Source: Naegleria gruberi (taxonomy: Eukaryota). Taken from it: a DNA stretch of 64,000 nt. Under the pieces are notes generated by a model that saw only the letters and a list, made by a program, of their open reading frames with translations, searched no databases and was not told the DNA's origin. The DNA is taken from the NCBI GenBank assembly GCA_000004985.1, contig GG738857.1; one strand, written 5' to 3'. Shown piece after piece: positions 33,554-47,363 of the stretch. Each line of letters begins with the position of its first letter. Position 1 is the stretch's first letter. The position numbers and the translations under genes are program-made.

Positions 33554-36548
33554 TTACACATCATTTAAAACATCAAAGAATGAAATCTCCTGATTATACG
33601 AGTTTGTTGAAGCTCTTCTATCTGCAGATGGAGAGAGAGGAGTGTTACTTCCACCTAATTCCAAACTAGTATTATTCAAACTCGTTCCAAGAGGAGATGG
33701 GCTAATTAGTGAGCCACCACTTCCAATTGAACCAGCCAAAGTTTGTGCTGTGCTTAATAAATCGGTGGTTGGTGTATTGGCTTTGTCACTTCCAACACTC
33801 ATAGTTCTTCTCAATTCTCTCATTCTAATTTCACCAAAGAGAACACATCCATCAATCGGTTTGGCATATTGATTGAGCATTGGAATACTTCTGCAACCTT
33901 TCTTTAATTGACGAACTGGAAGATAATTTTCACATAAAAATTCATTCGCAGTCTTGTTCTTGTCATAAACTGAAATACGAATTACAGCCAACTCTGGACA
34001 GGTAATGCTAAAGGCAAATCTCTTGTTAAAAACTGGATTGAAACCATTGTCAGTTACACTTTCTGACTTTTCATCATATTCATCTTGTGGAATACCTAAT
34101 ACTTGAAGTCTGACAAATGGATCAACAATTTCTCCCTTATCACTCATACCTGGTTTTGGCAATTGTTCTCCACAAACAACCTTTCCAATAAAATATTCCA
34201 GTAATTTCATTCAATTATTTAAAATATAAAGTTAATAATAAAAATAAAGAATAGAAACTCACTGTAAAAACAACAGATAATACTGGTGAAGTTCCAGCAG
34301 AGAATGGACTTGGAATGCCCTCTAAACGTAAAAAGTCAGGTTTTACAACATAGCCACATTTTCCATTCTCCTCGAATAAAACTTCGTTAAATCTCATATG
34401 TTCATCATAGGTCTGATAATTGAGAGCAACCATTTGACAACCAGTGGCCCAGCCCAACATTGGATTGTAATTACTTGATGAAATTCTGGTACCTCTTGGA
34501 TAGGTTCTAGAGATGTGATTCTTATTATACTTGACAAGGGCTTCTGGATCCTTCTTTAGGAGCTTTTCCAATTTACCTTCAGAGAAGCTGTGCATTTTCC
34601 AACATGGCTCAGCAAACTCTCCATGGAATGAAACTGCACACAATGCAATTATATCTGAGAGACCTTTGGCAACTTTGGACTTTTTCTTTTCCTTCTTTGG
34701 TTTCTCCTTCGAGGAGGATGGAGTAGAGACAGCTTCGTCATCCTCATCGTCTTCCTCCTCATCGTCATCTTCATCAGTTCCACTGCACAATCTCTTACCT
34801 TTGAGAAGGATCTTTCTCCTCAATTCGTGAGGAGATGGATATGTCACAATATCTTCAGGTGGAGGCATGTACAAATCCTCTCCAAATATTTGGACCATAA
34901 TCTTGGCCATCATTTCTTGTTGTGGTTCACTGCAGTGAACTTCCAATGATAAAATTACAGGGTACTCTGACGCTTTGAAGGCATAGTCGTGAATAATTTG
35001 GACTACATCTCTGAATTTAATTTTAGAGACGAGAGTGTGACCATGGAAAATGATTGGTTCATCCTTACCATCCCAACAATCCAATTCGACACAACGACAG
35101 CCAGTCAACAGTACATCTCTATACTTTTCAACAGAGCTTTCTCCTTTCAATTGATGTCCTGTCAGGTAGGTATTGTGAGAAGATGAAATAAAGTAGTGAG
35201 ACAGTGGTAGAGTCATATCTTGATGTAATTTCTTAAATCCTGGTTTCAATATTGAGTTTGCTTGTGAAAATAAATATCTGGTAAAATCATAACTTGTCAA
35301 ACCCAATCCCATTTCTGTTTGAATGGCTCCATGATTTTGCATTAATTTTTCTGCATCTTCAACTGTTTTAATATCTTGATCATCTTGTTGGGAGAGAATA
35401 AACTCAAAGAATTGTTGAGAGAGTACTAATTGGTGTTTCTTTGAATATCTGGCAAAGATTGTACTTTCAATTTCAGGTCTTCTCATCATAGATTTGTAAA
35501 ATTCAACAAATTCTTGGTATTCAATATATCCACTTCCATCTGTATCAAATTGTTTGTATTTTTGTTTCATTGATTTACTTGACATGTCAATATTCAACTT
35601 TTGGCATAATTTTACAACTTCCTAATAATAGCAAAAATTGTTTAATACATTAAATAAAAAAATTGAATGTGAATAAAACTTACCTTGTAATCCAGTTGTC
35701 CATCATTATTCACGTCAGCTTTCATCCAATGTTTTAAAATCAACAACTTGGTTGGATCTCTATCATAACTAATTCTTGATTCTCTAATCAAGTAATTGAG
35801 TAAACAAATATTTTCATTAAATTCATTCAAACTCTCACACATGATATCAATTTGTTCATCCTTGGCACCATAAATAATTGTATATCCATGTTCCAATTGT
35901 GGTGACTCTATTTTTCTACCAAAATAACCTTTTGATTGAGTTTTTGCTGCTTTACCCATCATGTCACTACCACAAATTTGTTTAATATCTCGTAAAAACA
36001 CTATCAATATCAAATCATTAAATTTCAATTATTTTCATCAATATTACACATCATAATAATAAATAGTACGTGTTTGTTTTGATAATAACAGGTTTAAATA
36101 GTTTAGAATATTTCCTACATACCATGTACTTTAGTTTCCTTCTTTTTCGAATCCTTTACCTCTATAAAAGTTTCCTCATCATCCAATACAAAATAATGAT
36201 CCTTGAGTGTGGTAGCTTTCTTCTCAAGGGATGATTTTAACTTTCTTCCCGACTTGAATTCTTGTAAAATCTTGTTAATATAGGCTGGTTCAGCATATTG
36301 ATAGGTTTGTAGTAAATGTTGATCAATGCAAATCTGTTCACACAATTCACTATTATCACTTCCAACGTGGAAGCTCCACCTCGAGGTGAAGATTCATTAT
36401 TGTGATTTGTTGTTGTTATTGTTGTTGTTCTACTATTATTGATGATGGATGAGGTGATGATGGGTGGTTGTAGTGGTGAGGGTGATGAAGATAATGATGA
36501 TGAAGGCAAATCATCCAATGCTCCTGGGCTTGTTGGATAGGATGACAT
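33554..36548 (-). CDS. Phosphoinositide-specific phospholipase C (PH - EF hands - X - Y - C2)
   Basis: Minus-strand exons, 5' to 3':
- a low-complexity N-terminus (about 36548..36370) whose frame differs from the PH exon;
- the PH exon (about 36350..36123; [14 protein letters not shown]...[15 protein letters not shown]), with donor GTATGT;
- exon 35684..36000, with the canonical EF loop [11 protein letters not shown]|E split by intron 35622..35683 (donor GTAAGT);
- exon 34263..35621, with EF loop [12 protein letters not shown] and X-box [12 protein letters not shown]...VELDCWDG;
- the Y-box exon, after intron 34181..34262 (donor GTGAGT);
- the C2 exon 33554..34180. Confidence 0.8.
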
Positions 36549-37977: not shown

Positions 37978-38058
37978 GCAGACTTGGCCGAGAGGTTAAG
38001 GCGCGAGACTCGAAATCTCGTGGGGAAACCTTCGTAGGTTCGAATCCTGCAGTCTGCG
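37978..38058 (+). tRNA. tRNA-Ser (anticodon CGA), class II with long variable arm
   Basis: GCAGACTTGGCCGAGAGGTTAAGGCGCGAGACTCGAAATCTCGTGGGGAAACCTTCGTAGGTTCGAATCCTGCAGTCTGCG. Acceptor stem GCAGACT/AGTCTGC, anticodon loop CTCGAAA, T-loop GGTTCGAATCC. Confidence 0.85.
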
Positions 38059-40876: not shown

Positions 40877-40991
40877 AATAACCAAAGTTTAAACACCTTC
40901 TGACCTAGATGTTGGTTAATTAAGAGATTTTAGGTTCCGATTTATTAAGATATTAAGACATTAGCATATTTTTATGAGGAATGAATAAGAT

Positions 40992-41063
40992 TCCCGTGTA
41001 GTCCAATGGCTAGGATACCTGGCTTTCACCCAGGAGGTCCGGGTTCAATTCCCGGCATGGGAG
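40992..41063 (+). tRNA. tRNA-Glu (anticodon TTC)
   Basis: TCCCGTGTAGTCCAATGGCTAGGATACCTGGCTTTCACCCAGGAGGTCCGGGTTCAATTCCCGGCATGGGAG. Anticodon loop CTTTCAC, T-loop GGTTCAATTCC, acceptor TCCCGTG/CATGGGA. Confidence 0.85.
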
Positions 41064-41707
41064 AATCATTTTGTTTATTATTCAAAAAACTAGTCTTAAT
41101 TCGTGATAGTTCCTGTTTGAGATTTTCGACCACAAGCTTAGGTCAGAAATTATTTCCTTCCAAACAATCCGATGGGATATCCTGTTGTTTTTCTTATCTA
41201 CCATTGACGCACTTGTCCCTTCTTCAATGAAACTGAATATTTTTAAAATTCTTACTTCATTCCAATAGAAATAGTTCTCATCTTCAACGCTTAGTGTTTT
41301 TAATTAAAAAATGAACAGTTCTAACTAATTTACTAGACTTGGGCTAGTTCCATTGTTTTCGTTTGTAAAAGCAAATGTCGAGATGTGGCCACATTTGACT
41401 CCTCAAAGAAATTCTTCGCTCAACAACAAATTCCATTTAACTTTTTTCGAATCGTAAAATAAATTAACAAAATAATCATGAAGTTAACAAGTATCTAAAA
41501 TAGTTTCTGACTACCATTCTAAACAAATAACTTTTCACAAGAATCATTTTCACATCATCAAGTACCCAATTACCCAACCAAAAAAAAATCATTCAATACC
41601 CTACCTCATCCTAGTCTGGTCAATTGATACGTATTGACGTTAATTTTCACAACAACACTCATCAACGCCTGTTTTCCATCAAAACTAATCAAAACTAATT
41701 CAAACTA

Positions 41708-43516
41708 ATGAGGAAAAAGTCTTCTGCTTCATCCCACCTGTATTATTTTCCGTTGAGTTGTGTAATTCTTGATGGTGCCACTAATTTATTGACCACCATT
41801 GTGGACTCGTTCTCTCAACAAGATTCCACATCTTCAGCAGCAACTGGAAATAACCAAACTTTCAATGATACTTCATCAAATTGTAGCTCGCCATCATTAA
41901 TGACCGTTGACAGTTCAATGACATTTACAGAATATCATGATGGAAGATCGTTCACTGTTCCATGTGTTTATGAACTGAGAGATCGTTTTCAGAGGTTTTT
42001 GAAAGAAACTTCAACTAGGAGAGCTGATGATTATCTCATCAAGTTGCATAAATTAATGTTTTTAGATGAATTTTATGATCCAACAAGGAATAGAAGAAAG
42101 AGAATTGAGAATTGTGAAACATTATTCAGAATGTGTGATCAATATTTGACATTGATTCATATTCAATCAAAAAATTCACTTTCCTTTTCATTATTAGATA
42201 CATTCCCATATTTGTATAACTTTGAAGAAATGCAAAAGATTCAACCTGACAATTCCATTTTGAAAAATCATGAATATTTGGTGAAATGGTTCAGAAAACA
42301 ATCTGAAAATTTAAAGAAATATTTGGCAGAGAAAGCTAATCAAGAAGTATTGAATGGTGGAGAATCCACTTCACCAGTTTCACCAGAGGAATCAACACAT
42401 GACCTAAATGAATCGATGGCTTCTCCAACATTGAGTGGATATATTAATTCTCCAACAAAATCCATACCTGGCATTGAGGAAAAACAAGCAGAACAATCGA
42501 AACTTGCCGATTATTTGGATGAAAATGAATTGAAAATGTTAACATACATGTTGAGTTCTGAATTGGAAGATTACTTTTCACTCTTCCAAAAGTCAAATGT
42601 TAAATACATGAAAAAGTGGTTGGAAAAGAATGTAAAAAGTTTGCCAAACTATATTATTGACACAATATCCAAAAAGAGAAAGAAATATTTACATTATCAT
42701 GAAAATTACAAATTGAGAGAAGAAGATTTGAATATGAAAACAATTCTCGACTCTGATTTTGAATTCATTCAATATTTAGCAGAACATACTGAAGATTGGA
42801 CAATAATGAATTCAGATTCTCCCATCATTCAAAGTTTCAAATCAAAAGAAAACTATTCGAAAATTCCAGATATGAAAATGCAAAAGTTCATTTCAAAAAT
42901 CAATTATTCCATTGAAAATGTCTTGAAAACAACTCTTTGTAACACAGATGAAATTGGTGAAAAGGATAACATGATTGAATGCTCTGAATATCATCACTAT
43001 ACTGAAATTGATCCTTCCGTTTCGAGTAGAAAATATTCTTCAGTCATTCAAACTTCAATTATGAATTATGGATCGATATTTAAGAAACGTTCATTGGAAA
43101 ATGTAATTTCATGTAGGGCAACGTTTTGTGGAGATGAAATACAAGATGCCATTCATCTCTACAAGACATGTTCCTATGTTTCTAATAAGAATGAAGATTC
43201 TAAAGCTCCTGTAAAGATAGTTATTGTTGGAGGGAGAATCTTTTCAAGAATCGATTCGAATAGAACAAAAGTAATTGATGTACGAATGTTCAATGTTGGT
43301 GGAATGTTTTTCAATTCAGATTTTGTAGTGCACAAACTTTCGTCCAAGAAAATGCTAGACGATACTTTGGAATATTTGGAAAAATCAATGAAGAAATCAG
43401 AAAAGGAAGGTTTCCCAATGCCACAATCTGATAAGCATTTTATTTGGAAAACTTTTGCAGATTATTGTAAAGTTCATTGTAAAGTAAATGTTGAATTGAA
43501 ATGGGAGAAAAACTAG
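41708..43516 (+). CDS. Novel-family protein, tandem paralog A (602 aa)
   Basis: Single ORF. Shares with the 43742..45613 gene the blocks HLYYFPLS..DG.T, FHDGRSFTVPC..ELRDRFQ, and an identical 94-aa core LHKLMFLDEFYDPTRNRRKRIENCETLFRMCDQYL...VKWFRKQSENLKKYL, plus a C-terminal ATFCGDEIQDAIHLYKTCSYVSNKNEDSKAP block. No known domain recognised. Confidence 0.65.
   Translation: MRKKSSASSHLYYFPLSCVILDGATNLLTTIVDSFSQQDSTSSAATGNNQTFNDTSSNCSSPSLMTVDSSMTFTEYHDGRSFTVPCVYELRDRFQRFLKETSTRRADDYLIKLHKLMFLDEFYDPTRNRRKRIENCETLFRMCDQYLTLIHIQSKNSLSFSLLDTFPYLYNFEEMQKIQPDNSILKNHEYLVKWFRKQSENLKKYLAEKANQEVLNGGESTSPVSPEESTHDLNESMASPTLSGYINSPTKSIPGIEEKQAEQSKLADYLDENELKMLTYMLSSELEDYFSLFQKSNVKYMKKWLEKNVKSLPNYIIDTISKKRKKYLHYHENYKLREEDLNMKTILDSDFEFIQYLAEHTEDWTIMNSDSPIIQSFKSKENYSKIPDMKMQKFISKINYSIENVLKTTLCNTDEIGEKDNMIECSEYHHYTEIDPSVSSRKYSSVIQTSIMNYGSIFKKRSLENVISCRATFCGDEIQDAIHLYKTCSYVSNKNEDSKAPVKIVIVGGRIFSRIDSNRTKVIDVRMFNVGGMFFNSDFVVHKLSSKKMLDDTLEYLEKSMKKSEKEGFPMPQSDKHFIWKTFADYCKVHCKVNVELKWEKN
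42044..42326 (+). repeat. 283-nt near-identical tract shared with 44153..44435 (gene-conversion tract between tandem paralogs)
   Basis: 5 mismatches in 283 nt, all synonymous. Flanking coding sequence is much more divergent. Confidence 0.8.
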
Positions 43517-43741
43517 ACAAATAAAAATTAACAGATCACACAATTTAACCAATAGTTGTTTAAAATGGAGGGAAATGTCCATAAATACTTGTTATCATCT
43601 CTTAAACGCATAAATACTATCACATGTCATTTGACTTTTGGCAAGTGTTTGATAAAATTAAGTTTAAAAAAAAATTAGTGAAAAACTAACACATATCCAA
43701 TAAGAGAATCATCTTTTAAAGGTGCGACACCCAATTCTTCA

Positions 43742-45613
43742 ATGAAATCTGCAGTTAAACCTTCATCATCATCCAAACATTTGTATTACTTTCCACTCAG
43801 CACAATTATCGTGGATGGATCAACAAGAAGTTTGTCATCCATGCTTTCTGAGAAAGCCACAACAACAGAAGAGGAAGTTATTAGAAAGTCAATAATGAGT
43901 AGAAGTAAGAGTGTTTCGTCTGCTTCAGGTTCTTTCGGTTCTACTCAACTTACAGTTGGTCCACTCTATACGAATGATTCGTCATCTGGTTGTAGTAGTT
44001 CTCCTTCACAATTAACTATTGATAGCAATGCAACGTTTACTGAATTTCATGATGGAAGATCATTCACGGTTCCATGCATTGTCGAATTGAGAGATCGCTT
44101 TCAACAATATTTAAAGTCAACTAGTGGAAATTCTGGTGATTTCCTATTGAAATTGCATAAATTAATGTTTTTAGATGAGTTTTATGATCCAACAAGGAAT
44201 AGAAGAAAGAGAATTGAGAATTGTGAAACATTATTCAGAATGTGTGATCAATATTTGACATTGATTCATATTCAATCAAAAAATTCACTTTCCTTTTCAT
44301 TATTAGATACATTTCCATATTTGTATAACTTCGAGGAAATGCAAAAGATTCAACCTGACAATTCCATTTTGAAAAATCACGAATATTTGGTGAAATGGTT
44401 CAGAAAACAATCTGAAAATTTAAAGAAATATTTGTCAGAGAAAGCTAGTCAAGAAATTGAAGTTTCCTCTTCACCTGAAGATAATACTGGAATGTTCTTG
44501 TCACCTTCAGTATCATCAACAACACTAAGTTTTGTAAATTCTCCAACATTGTCATTCCCTGGAAGTGATGTTGGACAGCCACTAGAAAAGACAAATCCCT
44601 CTTCTCAATTATTACTAGAATATTTGGATGAAAATGAATTGAAAATGTTAATTTACATGTTGAGTTCTGAATTGGAAGATTACTTTTCACTTTTTCAAAA
44701 AGCTAATCCCAAGTTTGTTAAAAAGTGGTTGGAAAAGAATGTAAAGAGTTTGCCAAACTATATTATTGACACAATTTCCAAAAAGAGAAAGAAATATTTA
44801 CACTATCATGAAAACTACAAATTAACTGAAGAAGATTTGAATATGAAAACAATTCTAGACTCTGATTTTGAATTCATTCAATATTTGGCCGAACATACTG
44901 AAGATTGGAAGATTCTAATGGATTCAAATCCAATAATAGCAGGATTTAAATCAAAAGAAAATTATTGTAAATTTACTGACATGAAAATGCAAAAATTCGT
45001 TACAACGGTCAATTATTCACTGGAAAATGTATTGAAAACCATGTTTGCTAACATTGAAGAATTAGGAGGTAGTGATAACATGATTGAAAGTTCTGAATAT
45101 CATCACTATACTGAAATTGATCCTTCCATTTCGAGTAGAAAATATTCTACTGTAATTCAAACATCATTGTGGAATTATGGATCAATATTCAAGAAACGTG
45201 CATTGGAAAATGTCATGTCATGCAAGGCAACATTTTGTGGAGATGAAATACAAGATGCCATTCATCTCTACAAGACATGTTCCTATGTTTCTAATAAGAA
45301 TGAAGATTCCAAAGCTCCAATTAAAATTATTGTGGTAGGAGGCAGAATATATTCCAAAATAGATTCAAATAGAACAAGAATTGTAGATGTAAGAATGTTC
45401 AATATTGGTGGGATTGTTGGAAACTTTGATTTTGTAACTTCAAACAAGTTGGTAGTGAAAAAGTCAATTGATGGAATTCTAGAATACTTGAAAAAAGCCA
45501 TGACCAATGCAGAAATGGAAGGTTTTCCAGTTCCTGATAGTTCTAAACACATTTGGAGAACACTAGTCGATTACTGTAGAGTGCATTGTAAAGTAGATAT
45601 TTCTAAATGGTAA
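43742..45613 (+). CDS. Novel-family protein, tandem paralog B (623 aa)
   Basis: See paralog A. It lies 225 nt downstream on the same strand. Confidence 0.65.
   Translation: MKSAVKPSSSSKHLYYFPLSTIIVDGSTRSLSSMLSEKATTTEEEVIRKSIMSRSKSVSSASGSFGSTQLTVGPLYTNDSSSGCSSSPSQLTIDSNATFTEFHDGRSFTVPCIVELRDRFQQYLKSTSGNSGDFLLKLHKLMFLDEFYDPTRNRRKRIENCETLFRMCDQYLTLIHIQSKNSLSFSLLDTFPYLYNFEEMQKIQPDNSILKNHEYLVKWFRKQSENLKKYLSEKASQEIEVSSSPEDNTGMFLSPSVSSTTLSFVNSPTLSFPGSDVGQPLEKTNPSSQLLLEYLDENELKMLIYMLSSELEDYFSLFQKANPKFVKKWLEKNVKSLPNYIIDTISKKRKKYLHYHENYKLTEEDLNMKTILDSDFEFIQYLAEHTEDWKILMDSNPIIAGFKSKENYCKFTDMKMQKFVTTVNYSLENVLKTMFANIEELGGSDNMIESSEYHHYTEIDPSISSRKYSTVIQTSLWNYGSIFKKRALENVMSCKATFCGDEIQDAIHLYKTCSYVSNKNEDSKAPIKIIVVGGRIYSKIDSNRTRIVDVRMFNIGGIVGNFDFVTSNKLVVKKSIDGILEYLKKAMTNAEMEGFPVPDSSKHIWRTLVDYCRVHCKVDISKW
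44153..44435 (+). repeat. Second copy of the 283-nt conversion tract
   Basis: Matches 42044..42326 at about 98% identity. Confidence 0.8.
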
Positions 45614-45623
45614 ATTAAAATAT

Positions 45624-47363
45624 TTAATCTACATTATTGAGCAACTCGTCCATCTTTCTCTTTTTTGATTGTGATTCCTCTTCGTCTTCTGATTCACTCG
45701 AATAATATTCAGCATATTCGCTATCAGAATCAAATACTTCATCAAACTCCTTAGTTTCCTCTCTGTATCGTTTTGGTTTTGGAATATCATATACTTCACT
45801 TCTTGTACCCCAATAATTAAACCAATCTTTGTATTCCCTCTCATCTAGTTCTTTTACAAGTTTTCTGAGTCTCCAATTTTGTTTCAATCTATTTGAGGCA
45901 TACTCAATGCTATAAGAATTATCCTTCACAGCCTCTGTAACAATTTCTAGATCATCCTTGAATGTATCAGATACATGCTGGAGTACAAATCCATTACCTT
46001 TAACAGTCTCCAAAATAAACTCTCTATCACTTTTCAACTCCTCTGGAATCTGCTGGAAAAGTGCTGAGTTTTTTTTGAGTGCATTCAATAGCATGTTTCT
46101 GTCAACATTACCAAAATCTTTCATTTTCTCTAAAATTAATGGAACATTTTCTCGTGATAAAAGTGTGGCCTTCTTAATGTCATCCTCTCTTTCCATAATA
46201 TATTCTATTGCATTGGTGTGAGTGGATGTTGTCATGGATAGAACTTCCCAGTCATTTTGTAAATCAGGATCAGCATACACAATAGCACTTCCATCATTGG
46301 AAACGGCTGCCAAAACAATTTCCTTATCTGCCTGAAGCTCTTCTGAGGCATATTCCAAAGATAGCCCACAATTTCTTACTGCATTCAATACAATTTCACG
46401 ATCATCTCCATAATCTTCCCAAATATAACTCAAAACTTCTCCATTTTCATTTACACATTCCAAAATGAAATCTCTATCCTGATATAGTTCATCACACGAA
46501 TATTGAATTGCATATGGAAAGGTTTTGATAGCTTCCAAAATGATTTCGTTGTCTCGGAGGAATTCATTGTTCACAAATTGAATAGCCTCTCCATTATTCT
46601 TTAGGGCAAGTAAAACCATTTCTCTGGTTTGATTCTCTGCATAAAACAACATTTCCCCACAATGTCTCACCATACGGCAGAAATCTTTTGTGTTCACATA
46701 AAATGGTTGTCGGAACTGCCAGTCATCCAATGGATTCTGACTATATTTTACAGATATTCTTTGCAGTTCGTCACTGGCATCTAGGTCCAGTTCAAAGATA
46801 TTTAGATCTGGATGCTCTTTTGTTAATCGTTTAAGAAAATCCATATTCGTTTGGTAATGCTGACCAGTCGCAAAAACTCCTGAATTCAAAGCCACGTACT
46901 TTCCCACACTTTGACTGATATAATATTCATCATTTTCCAAATAAGGATCATCAATACATGCAATTTCAAATAGCTCTGTACAAGCATGTCCACATGAATC
47001 CACAAATTGATAAGCTGATCCATCGTTCTTAATAGCTTCCTTACAAACATCATAAGTGACCAAACCATGATCTGAAACACAACTCAGAGCATACCCATTT
47101 TGTTTAACAGCTTCTAACAACAATCCATACTCTACAATTTCATCATCATTGAAATATTCCATTGCCATTCCATTGTGTTGTACAGCTTTTAAAGCAAGCT
47201 TCTCACGAAGATCATCGCTAGCCAAGTCAATCAATTCACAACAATACATGCCAGCCTTTAACATGAATTCTTCATCGGAGCCTAATATTTTCATCATTGA
47301 AGCTTCAATAGGAAAGTCAGAACAAACCGATGGATAATATTCCATGAGCCTCATGTTAATCAT
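45624..47363 (-). CDS. DUF4116-like repeat protein (paralog of the gene at the window start) with an acidic/NLS-like tail
   Basis: 579-aa ORF containing about 10 repeats of the type REIVLNAVRNCGLSLEYASEELQADKEIVLAAVSNDGSAIVYA. C-terminus SESEDEEESQSKKRKMDELL. Confidence 0.6.
   Translation of the reverse strand: MINMRLMEYYPSVCSDFPIEASMMKILGSDEEFMLKAGMYCCELIDLASDDLREKLALKAVQHNGMAMEYFNDDEIVEYGLLLEAVKQNGYALSCVSDHGLVTYDVCKEAIKNDGSAYQFVDSCGHACTELFEIACIDDPYLENDEYYISQSVGKYVALNSGVFATGQHYQTNMDFLKRLTKEHPDLNIFELDLDASDELQRISVKYSQNPLDDWQFRQPFYVNTKDFCRMVRHCGEMLFYAENQTREMVLLALKNNGEAIQFVNNEFLRDNEIILEAIKTFPYAIQYSCDELYQDRDFILECVNENGEVLSYIWEDYGDDREIVLNAVRNCGLSLEYASEELQADKEIVLAAVSNDGSAIVYADPDLQNDWEVLSMTTSTHTNAIEYIMEREDDIKKATLLSRENVPLILEKMKDFGNVDRNMLLNALKKNSALFQQIPEELKSDREFILETVKGNGFVLQHVSDTFKDDLEIVTEAVKDNSYSIEYASNRLKQNWRLRKLVKELDEREYKDWFNYWGTRSEVYDIPKPKRYREETKEFDEVFDSDSEYAEYYSSESEDEEESQSKKRKMDELLNNVD

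What the first reader, a model, noticed from the sequence alone, without database searches (positions are those of the whole stretch)
41708..45613. Tandem pair of novel genes with mosaic near-identical conversion tracts
Two same-strand genes 225 nt apart encode 602- and 623-aa proteins of one unrecognised family. Their termini and linkers are strongly diverged.

A 283-nt tract (42044..42326 versus 44153..44435) differs at only 5 positions, all synonymous, and encodes an identical 94-aa core (LHKLMFLDEFYDPTRNRRKRIENCETLFRMCDQYL...KWFRKQSENLKKYL). A second tract of about 90 nt near the C-terminus (ATFCGDEIQDAIHLYKTCSYVSNKNEDSKAP) is also nearly identical.

This pattern indicates recurrent gene conversion and/or extreme purifying selection on a core of unknown function, set in otherwise rapidly evolving paralogs.
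Basis: seen in the sequence. Interest (0 to 1): 0.7.

Follow-up and report, generated by a model that had tools for sequence, protein, structure and literature searches.

The report
Gene conversion between tandem Naegleria START-domain genes
Two neighbouring, anciently duplicated genes of the amoeboflagellate Naegleria gruberi, encoding uncharacterised proteins with a predicted lipid-binding (START) fold, have repeatedly copied internal stretches onto one another; this is a clean but ordinary case of gene conversion.

Summary
ORFs 41708..43516 (602 aa) and 43742..45613 (623 aa) are tandem paralogs, 69% identical in protein.

They share a 282-nt tract (42044..42325 / 44153..44434) with five differences, all synonymous. 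A 93-nt tract has three synonymous differences. At least two more patches show low divergence.

Synonymous divergence between the pair is saturated in the N-terminus, linker and C-end. It is 0.10 in tract 1 and 0 in tract 2. The single-copy N. lovaniensis / N. fowleri orthologs show dS of 0.65-1.85 in every segment, with no dip. Across species the "core" is only about 33% identical.

Interlocus gene conversion is therefore the explanation, with events of different ages. Extreme purifying selection is not.

The window is Naegleria gruberi, which belongs to Heterolobosea, not Amoebozoa. The family has no Pfam match but is not small: at least 10 paralogs in N. gruberi, and others in N. lovaniensis, N. 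fowleri and Willaertia.

This is a known phenomenon in a newly fold-assigned family, of modest interest.

The parts
41708..43516 (+). Gene A, 602 aa, upstream copy of the tandem pair. It is identical to the public N. gruberi predicted protein P0002.
43742..45613 (+). Gene B, 623 aa, downstream copy. The public model P0001 (481 aa) matches only its first 464 aa.
43517..43741 (.). 225-nt spacer between the copies. It has no detectable similarity to the 830 nt upstream of gene A, so homology is confined to the coding regions.
42044..42325 (+). Conversion tract 1 in gene A: 94 codons, 5 synonymous differences from B, dS 0.10-0.11. Low third-position divergence extends to 42346.
44153..44434 (+). 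Conversion tract 1 in gene B (B residues 138-231). It covers the later helices (from H131-147 on) of the N-terminal helical module.
43118..43210 (+). Conversion tract 2 in gene A: 93 nt, 3 synonymous differences, with a 77-nt perfect run at 43124..43200. It lies inside the START beta-sheet.
45227..45319 (+). Conversion tract 2 in gene B (B residues 496-526).
42512..42799 (+). Older low-divergence patches in gene A: 42512..42580 (dS 0.10) and 42611..42799 (dS 0.35), split by a 30-nt diverged gap. The partners in B are 44621..44689 and 44720..44908.
42347..42511 (+). Diverged, indel-rich linker in gene A (partner 44456..44620 in B). Silent sites are saturated, and the homologous B segment (residues 243-288) is predicted disordered. 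It was not converted recently.
44834..45610 (+). Predicted START (helix-grip) domain of gene B, residues ~365-623. The equivalent in gene A is ~42725..43513.
44063..44467 (+). N-terminal helical module of gene B, residues ~108-242. It has no confident fold match and only weak hits to RGS domains.

Best explanation
Genes A and B are tandem duplicates that arose in the N. gruberi lineage after it split from the N. lovaniensis / N. fowleri lineage. The duplication is old enough that silent sites are saturated wherever the copies evolved independently.

Since then, non-reciprocal homologous recombination between the two copies (interlocus gene conversion) has overwritten internal coding segments several times:
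- a recent event of about 0.28-0.30 kb in the N-terminal helical module (dS ~0.1);
- a very recent event of about 80-90 nt in the START beta-sheet (dS 0);
- older events across the helical region just before the START fold and the first half of the START fold (dS ~0.1-0.5).

The N-terminus, the disordered linker, the C-terminal end and both flanks escaped conversion.

Both proteins belong to a multigene family found so far in Naegleria, Willaertia and unassigned metagenome contigs. Its architecture is a short conserved N-terminal motif, a disordered Ser-rich stretch, a helical module, a disordered linker, more helices and a C-terminal START fold.

Inferred, not shown: they bind or transfer a hydrophobic ligand, such as a lipid or sterol, through the START cavity.

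Shown here: the tracts, their statistics, the ortholog control and the fold prediction. Inferred: the recombination mechanism, the number and order of events, and the biochemical function.
For: **Tracts and statistics**
- Tract coordinates and differences.
- The longest identical run is 134 nt, permutation p <= 5e-5.
- Among amino-acid-identical codons, the same codon is used in 93% in the core, 86% and 88% in the other tracts, and 44-58% in the N-terminus, linker and C-end. The core-versus-rest comparison gives Fisher p 2e-7.
- Change-point segmentation of third positions gives difference rates of 0.59 | 0.05 | 0.71 | 0.28 | 0.00 | 0.47 along the gene, and 0 of 200 permutations matched the fit.
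- Per-segment dS is saturated / 0.10 / saturated / 0.10-0.35 / 0.55 / 0 / 1.83.

**Ortholog control**
- The N. lovaniensis / N. fowleri ortholog pair has dS 0.65-1.85 in every homologous segment, with no dip.
- The core is only ~33% identical between N. gruberi and other species.

**Timing and arrangement**
- A+B are monophyletic in 200/200 bootstraps in every partition.
- Relatives are single at each locus examined: N. fowleri, two N. lovaniensis loci and one metagenome contig.
- The flanks share no homology.

**No RNA-level explanation**
- The tract shows no excess RNA structure (z +0.36) and has no Rfam match.

**Fold and family**
- hhalign gives 99.8% probability to a family with a Pfam RGS domain followed by the same C-terminal fold.
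- Family size.
Against: - There is only one assembly and no read-level data, so a consensus artefact cannot be formally excluded.
- The duplication is lineage-specific and no second genome carries both copies, so the classical test (segment-wise phylogenetic incongruence) could not be run.
- Tract 2 and the older patches lie in the parts most conserved across species. There the amino-acid identity is expected anyway and only the silent sites speak for conversion. For tract 2, 25 identical third positions against a local background of ~0.29 is only marginal after allowing for multiple positions.
- The full-length structure model has moderate confidence (mean pLDDT 59.8).
- No member of the family reaches any Pfam family, START included.
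Confidence: 0.85

Rival explanations
1. Extreme purifying selection on the protein, or on synonymous sites through an embedded RNA or regulatory element, keeps the core identical without any sequence transfer.
For: The core is 100% identical in protein. Tract 2 lies in the part of the family most conserved across species.
Against: - Protein-level selection does not preserve third positions. 89 of the 94 core codons are identical at the nucleotide level, against 44-58% same-codon use among amino-acid-identical codons in unconverted parts.
- The core is only ~33% identical across species.
- The orthologs show normal dS there, 0.65.
- There is no excess RNA structure and no Rfam hit.
Confidence: 0.03
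2. Assembly artefact: reads from the two copies were merged locally, giving a chimeric consensus with false identity.
For: Only one assembly is available. The exact-product look-ups found no independent contig. Near-identical repeats of ~300 nt 2.1 kb apart can confuse assemblers.
Against: - Five differences remain inside tract 1 and three inside tract 2, so the copies were resolved separately.
- Both ORFs are intact and in register, at a constant 2109-nt offset.
- The graded patches (dS 0, 0.1, 0.35, 0.5) are not what a collapse produces.
Confidence: 0.05
3. One old conversion or late duplication of the whole central block (42044..43200), followed by very uneven divergence, rather than several events.
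For: With a strict penalty, the silent-codon series splits into only three blocks, and their borders coincide with the start of tract 1 and the end of tract 2.
Against: - The linker inside that block is saturated at silent sites (pS 0.8) and full of indels.
- Short gaps at 42581..42610 and 42800..42838 have third-position differences of 0.80-0.85.
- The orthologs show no comparable unevenness in dS.
Confidence: 0.07

Closest known systems
Interlocus (ectopic) gene conversion between tandem paralogs. From my own knowledge: globin and opsin gene pairs. In this species it was invoked for the flagellar alpha-tubulin genes (PMC2115128, seen only as a search listing).
   Same: Closely linked, same-strand paralogs. 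Short internal tracts (tens to a few hundred nt) are homogenised at silent sites, with sharp borders and diverged flanks. Several events of different ages are visible.
   Different: Nothing in the mechanism differs. The case is new only for this gene pair and family. No second genome is available to show segment-wise phylogenetic incongruence.
StAR-related lipid-transfer (START) domain proteins: STARD5, STARD10, StAR/STARD1, STARD4, CERT
   Different: Sequence identity is 6-11%. No Pfam START match exists for any of 44 family members, and the PDB profile searches find no START. There is an extra C-terminal helix. The N-terminal architecture is unlike any characterised START protein I know of. 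The ligand is unknown.
Unnamed RGS + START-like proteins from eukaryotic metagenome contigs (P0053, P0054, P0057, P0059 and others)
   Same: They are homologous from the last RGS helices through the whole START fold: hhalign probability 99.8%, E 5e-29. Shared motifs are DxFPRYxRS ~ ELEDYFSLFQKS and ITDRDIxF...EDSxDWE ~ ILDSDFEF...EHTEDW.
   Different: They have a bona fide Pfam RGS domain (E 1e-10 to 1e-15; PDB RGS2/RGS8 at E 4e-17). The Naegleria proteins have a longer helical module split by a disordered linker, and it does not score as RGS by sequence.

Membership tests
Interlocus gene conversion between paralogs | Tracts of significantly low divergence bounded by highly diverged sequence within one paralog pair | tested here: met
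   The longest identical run is 134 nt, permutation p <= 5e-5. Change-point segmentation beat all 200 permutations.
Interlocus gene conversion between paralogs | Homogenisation includes synonymous sites | tested here: met
   dS is 0.10 in tract 1 and 0.00 in tract 2, against saturated values or 1.83 elsewhere. The same-codon fraction is 0.93 in the core against 0.44-0.58 in the unconverted segments; the core-versus-rest comparison gives Fisher p 2e-7.
Interlocus gene conversion between paralogs | The pattern is not a property of the region itself (mutation rate, codon bias, synonymous constraint) | tested here: met
   The N. lovaniensis / N. fowleri orthologs have dS 0.65-1.85 in all segments, with no dip.
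Interlocus gene conversion between paralogs | Segment-wise phylogenetic incongruence relative to orthologous copies in a related genome | not testable with these tools
   The duplication is specific to the N. gruberi lineage: A+B are monophyletic in 200/200 bootstraps in all partitions. The other species examined have single copies at each locus.
Interlocus gene conversion between paralogs | Sequence confirmed independently of one assembly | not testable with these tools
   The exact-product look-ups found no other contig.
START / StARkin domain (Bet v 1-like, SRPBCC superfamily) | Helix-grip fold: antiparallel beta-sheet wrapped round a long C-terminal helix | tested here: met
START / StARkin domain (Bet v 1-like, SRPBCC superfamily) | Sequence match to a curated Pfam model such as START, or to solved START chains | tested here: not met
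   There is no Pfam hit for A, B or any of 44 relatives, and no START in the PDB profile searches.
START / StARkin domain (Bet v 1-like, SRPBCC superfamily) | Hydrophobic cavity that binds a lipid or sterol | not testable with these tools
RGS domain | Sequence match to Pfam RGS (PF00615) | tested here: not met
   There is no hit for A or B at E <= 0.1. hhalign of the core against the RGS part of the relatives gives E 0.06 over 15 columns. The global alignment scores below the null.
RGS domain | Nine-helix RGS fold | tested here: inconclusive
RGS domain | Homology to proteins with a bona fide RGS domain at the equivalent position | tested here: met
   hhalign gives 99.8% probability, but the alignment covers only the last RGS helices plus START.

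The most novel reading that the evidence does not exclude
The conversion is not neutral. The helical module that holds the identical core would be a partner-binding or regulatory module, possibly descended from an RGS domain. Both paralogs would have to keep it the same, while their START domains (omega about three times that of the orthologs) diverge towards different ligands. Conversion tracts that restore the shared module would then be favoured by selection. On this reading the family is a heterolobosean lipid-sensing branch of G-protein signalling.
Probability: 0.12. Interest if true: 0.55.

Novelty: new member of a known kind. Interest (0 to 1): 0.3.

Why it matters
- It is a well-controlled, textbook-quality example of patchy interlocus gene conversion in a heterolobosean, a group with few documented cases.
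- It assigns a fold to a gene family that is annotated only as "predicted protein". The family has at least 10 genes in N. gruberi and relatives in the pathogen N. fowleri. The fold is START, with a link to RGS-containing relatives.
- It corrects a truncated public gene model.
- None of this overturns current understanding.

Tried and rejected
- Phage collection megablast found no match. This check turned out to be irrelevant, because the window is eukaryotic.
- A second word-indexed protein search with a 44-sequence profile returned only 7 hits, fewer than the single-sequence search. The cause was not checked. Family size was taken instead from the exhaustive representative search and the cluster look-ups.
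- A third protein search, with the RGS+START relative P0053, found only unnamed metagenome proteins. Its contig gave no organism.
- The afdb50 fold library was unavailable.
- An embedded RNA element as the cause of silent-site identity was rejected.
- Asymmetric evolution of one copy was tested with relative-rate counts. No comparison over the whole gene is significant. Gene A shows only a weak excess in the N-terminus and C-end against the N. lovaniensis and N. fowleri orthologs.
- GC3 is the same in the tract as in the rest of each gene, so there is no sign of GC-biased conversion.
- A literature search for RGS plus START found one paper holding both terms, which I did not read.
Full report
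**1. The observation**

The window holds two same-strand ORFs, 41708..43516 (602 aa, gene A) and 43742..45613 (623 aa, gene B), separated by 225 nt. Their proteins align end to end at about 69% identity. The aligned codons are 76.5% identical in DNA.

- 42044..42325 and 44153..44434 are 282 nt, or 94 codons. They have five differences, all synonymous third-position changes.
- The longest perfectly identical run is 134 nt. No permutation of the variable sites reached it in 20,000 trials.

The second tract, encoding ATFCGDEIQDAIHLYKTCSYVSNKNEDSKAP, is 43118..43210 / 45227..45319. It is 93 nt with three synonymous differences and contains a 77-nt perfect run. All repeats lie at a constant offset of 2109 nt.

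**2. Divergence along the genes**

A sliding Nei-Gojobori analysis shows strongly uneven silent divergence. Change-point segmentation of third-position differences gives these difference rates:

| Segment (gene A coordinates) | Third positions differing |
|---|---|
| N-terminus | 0.59 |
| 42044..42346 | 0.05 |
| Linker 42347..42511 | 0.71 |
| 42512..43123 | 0.28 |
| 43124..43198 | 0.00 |
| C-end | 0.47 |

With a lighter penalty, the 42512..43123 block resolves into low patches at 42512..42580 (0.04) and 42611..42799 (0.14), separated by short, highly diverged gaps. The segmented model beat all 200 permutations.

Per-segment dS for the pair is as follows:

| Segment | dS |
|---|---|
| N-terminus | saturated |
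| Tract 1 | 0.10-0.11 |
| Linker | saturated |
| Middle patches | 0.10 and 0.35 |
| First half of the START fold | 0.55 |
| Tract 2 | 0.00 |
| C-end | 1.83 |

Among codons that encode the same amino acid, the same codon is used in 93% of cases in the core. The figure is 44-58% in the N-terminus, linker and C-end. The core-versus-rest comparison gives Fisher p 2e-7.

**3. Conversion or selection?**

Three controls separate the two.

- *Conservation across species.* The core is not especially conserved in the family. N. gruberi and the other species are only ~33% identical there, against 45-70% in the C-terminal half.
- *Ortholog control.* I codon-aligned the single-copy orthologs of N. lovaniensis and N. 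fowleri with A and B. Their dS is 0.65-1.85 in every homologous segment: 0.65 in the tract-1 segment and 1.85 in the tract-2 segment. The patchiness therefore belongs to the tandem pair. It is not a property of the region through mutation rate, codon bias or synonymous constraint.
- *RNA element.* The tract folds no better than shuffled sequence (z +0.36). Nothing in 40.8-46 kb matches Rfam except a tRNA.

Protein-level selection cannot hold third positions identical, so non-reciprocal transfer between the copies is the explanation. The different dS levels imply several events of different ages. A single old event spanning 42044..43200 is unlikely, because the linker and two short gaps inside that span are saturated at silent sites.

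**4. History of the pair**

The window is Naegleria gruberi. Gene A equals the public protein P0002. The first 464 residues of gene B equal P0001.

- A and B are each other's closest relatives in every partition of the alignment (NJ bootstrap 200/200).
- The other species examined carry one copy per locus.
- The N. fowleri and N. lovaniensis orthologs sit in a shared neighbourhood (Ank - gene - ApoL - ... - RCC1 - Asp). None of those families matched the 15 larger window ORFs scanned against Pfam.
- The duplication is therefore specific to the N. gruberi lineage.
- It is old. In unconverted parts, silent sites are saturated. The A-B protein distance there (0.38) exceeds that between the N. lovaniensis and N. 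fowleri orthologs (0.26).
- The 5' flanks of the two genes share no similarity.

In the START domain, the pair has omega 0.27 and 0.14, against 0.08 and 0.05 for the orthologs. This indicates relaxed or diversifying evolution after duplication. Relative-rate counts show no clear asymmetry between the copies.

**5. What the genes encode**

Neither protein, nor any of 44 relatives, matches a Pfam family. Profile searches of PDB sequences find nothing.

An exhaustive profile search finds 76 cluster representatives, 42 of them below E 1e-30. The named ones are from:
- N. gruberi: eight further genes at 24-31% identity to A and B;
- N. lovaniensis;
- N. fowleri;
- Willaertia magna.

The family is thus a multigene family found so far in Naegleria, Willaertia and unassigned metagenome contigs. 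It is not a private pair.

An AlphaFold2 model of B (mean pLDDT 59.8) gives the following layout:

| Residues of B | Feature |
|---|---|
| 1-107 | Mostly disordered |
| 111-242 | Helices |
| 243-288 | Disordered linker |
| 286-385 | Helices |
| ~399-616 | Alpha/beta domain |

Weaker relatives (E 1e-9 to 1e-4) have a Pfam RGS domain in front of the same fold. A profile-profile comparison aligns the Naegleria family to them at 99.8% probability, from the last RGS helices through START. Their RGS part matches solved RGS2 and RGS8 at E 4e-17.

I tested whether the Naegleria helical module, which holds the 94-aa core, is itself a diverged RGS domain.
- Foldseek finds nothing.
- Local and global profile comparisons are not significant.

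I leave this as an open lead.

**6. Mechanism and confidence**

Shown:
- the tracts and their statistics;
- the ortholog control;
- the lineage-specific tandem arrangement;
- the START-fold prediction;
- homology to RGS+START proteins.

Inferred:
- the tracts arose by ectopic gene conversion during recombinational repair or meiosis between copies 2.1 kb apart;
- there were at least three events;
- the proteins bind a hydrophobic ligand.

Not excluded: a consensus artefact of the single available assembly. The differences that remain inside the tracts and the graded patch ages argue against it.

**7. Novelty and interest**

Patchy gene conversion between tandem paralogs is a long-known process. 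By title and abstract snippet (PMC2115128, listed but not read), it was already invoked for N. gruberi alpha-tubulin genes.

What is new is the instance, the fold assignment for an unannotated family, and a corrected gene model. Interest is modest.

Noticed in passing
window 45134..45199 (gene B): The public N. gruberi model of gene B (P0001, 481 aa) follows the ORF for 464 residues. It then jumps to an out-of-frame 17-aa tail that maps from about 45199. An apparently spurious intron therefore truncates the START domain. The uninterrupted 623-aa ORF keeps homology to all relatives through to the C-terminus.
   Followed up: partly
window 40991..41064 and 37978..38058: There is a tRNA-Glu(TTC) gene 640 nt upstream of gene A and a tRNA-Ser(CGA) gene further upstream, both on the + strand. 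The tRNA-Glu was confirmed by Rfam (67 bits).
   Followed up: partly
window 45624..47363 (-) and 35..913 (+): A 579-aa protein made of DUF4116 repeats (Pfam E 1e-84) converges on gene B. Only 10 nt separate the two stop codons, so the 3' ends of the transcripts probably overlap. A second ORF at the start of the window is similar to it by blastp (E 5e-19).
   Followed up: no
gene A residues 10-23, gene B residues 12-25 (window 41735..41776, 43775..43816): A short N-terminal motif (consensus LYYFPxxxIxxP) is conserved across family members from several species. It sits in front of a disordered Ser-rich stretch and could be a targeting or docking motif. It is not explained.
   Followed up: no
L001 10185..10299 (N. 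fowleri ortholog): The N. fowleri ortholog has a 115-nt GT-AG intron after about codon 61. The N. lovaniensis and N. gruberi genes are uninterrupted ORFs.
   Followed up: partly
L001 and L002 versus the window: The N. fowleri and N. lovaniensis orthologs share a conserved neighbourhood (Ank, ApoL, RCC1 and aspartic protease genes). None of these families matched the 15 larger window ORFs scanned around the N. gruberi pair. The scanned ORFs include actin, PI-PLC, C2, LRR, F-box and DUF4116 proteins. The locus has therefore probably been rearranged.
   Followed up: partly
P0053, P0054, P0057, P0059 (metagenome proteins); L005 4001..5329: Small eukaryotic metagenome proteins combine a Pfam RGS domain with the same START-like fold. 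Only one paper in the searched library mentions both domain names, and it was not read. The source organisms are unknown.
   Followed up: partly
window 33554..35597 (-): A PI-PLC X/Y plus EF-hand ORF (34215..35597) and a C2-domain ORF (33554..34210) lie head to tail on the minus strand, 4 nt apart. This is probably one phospholipase C gene interrupted by a short intron or a frame change.
   Followed up: no
N. lovaniensis C9374_002784 / C9374_002786 and Willaertia ABK040_012374 / ABK040_012420: Other family members also lie close together on one contig. The N. lovaniensis pair is only 33% identical. The Willaertia pair is 98% identical, so it is either a very recent duplication or another conversion case.
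   Followed up: no
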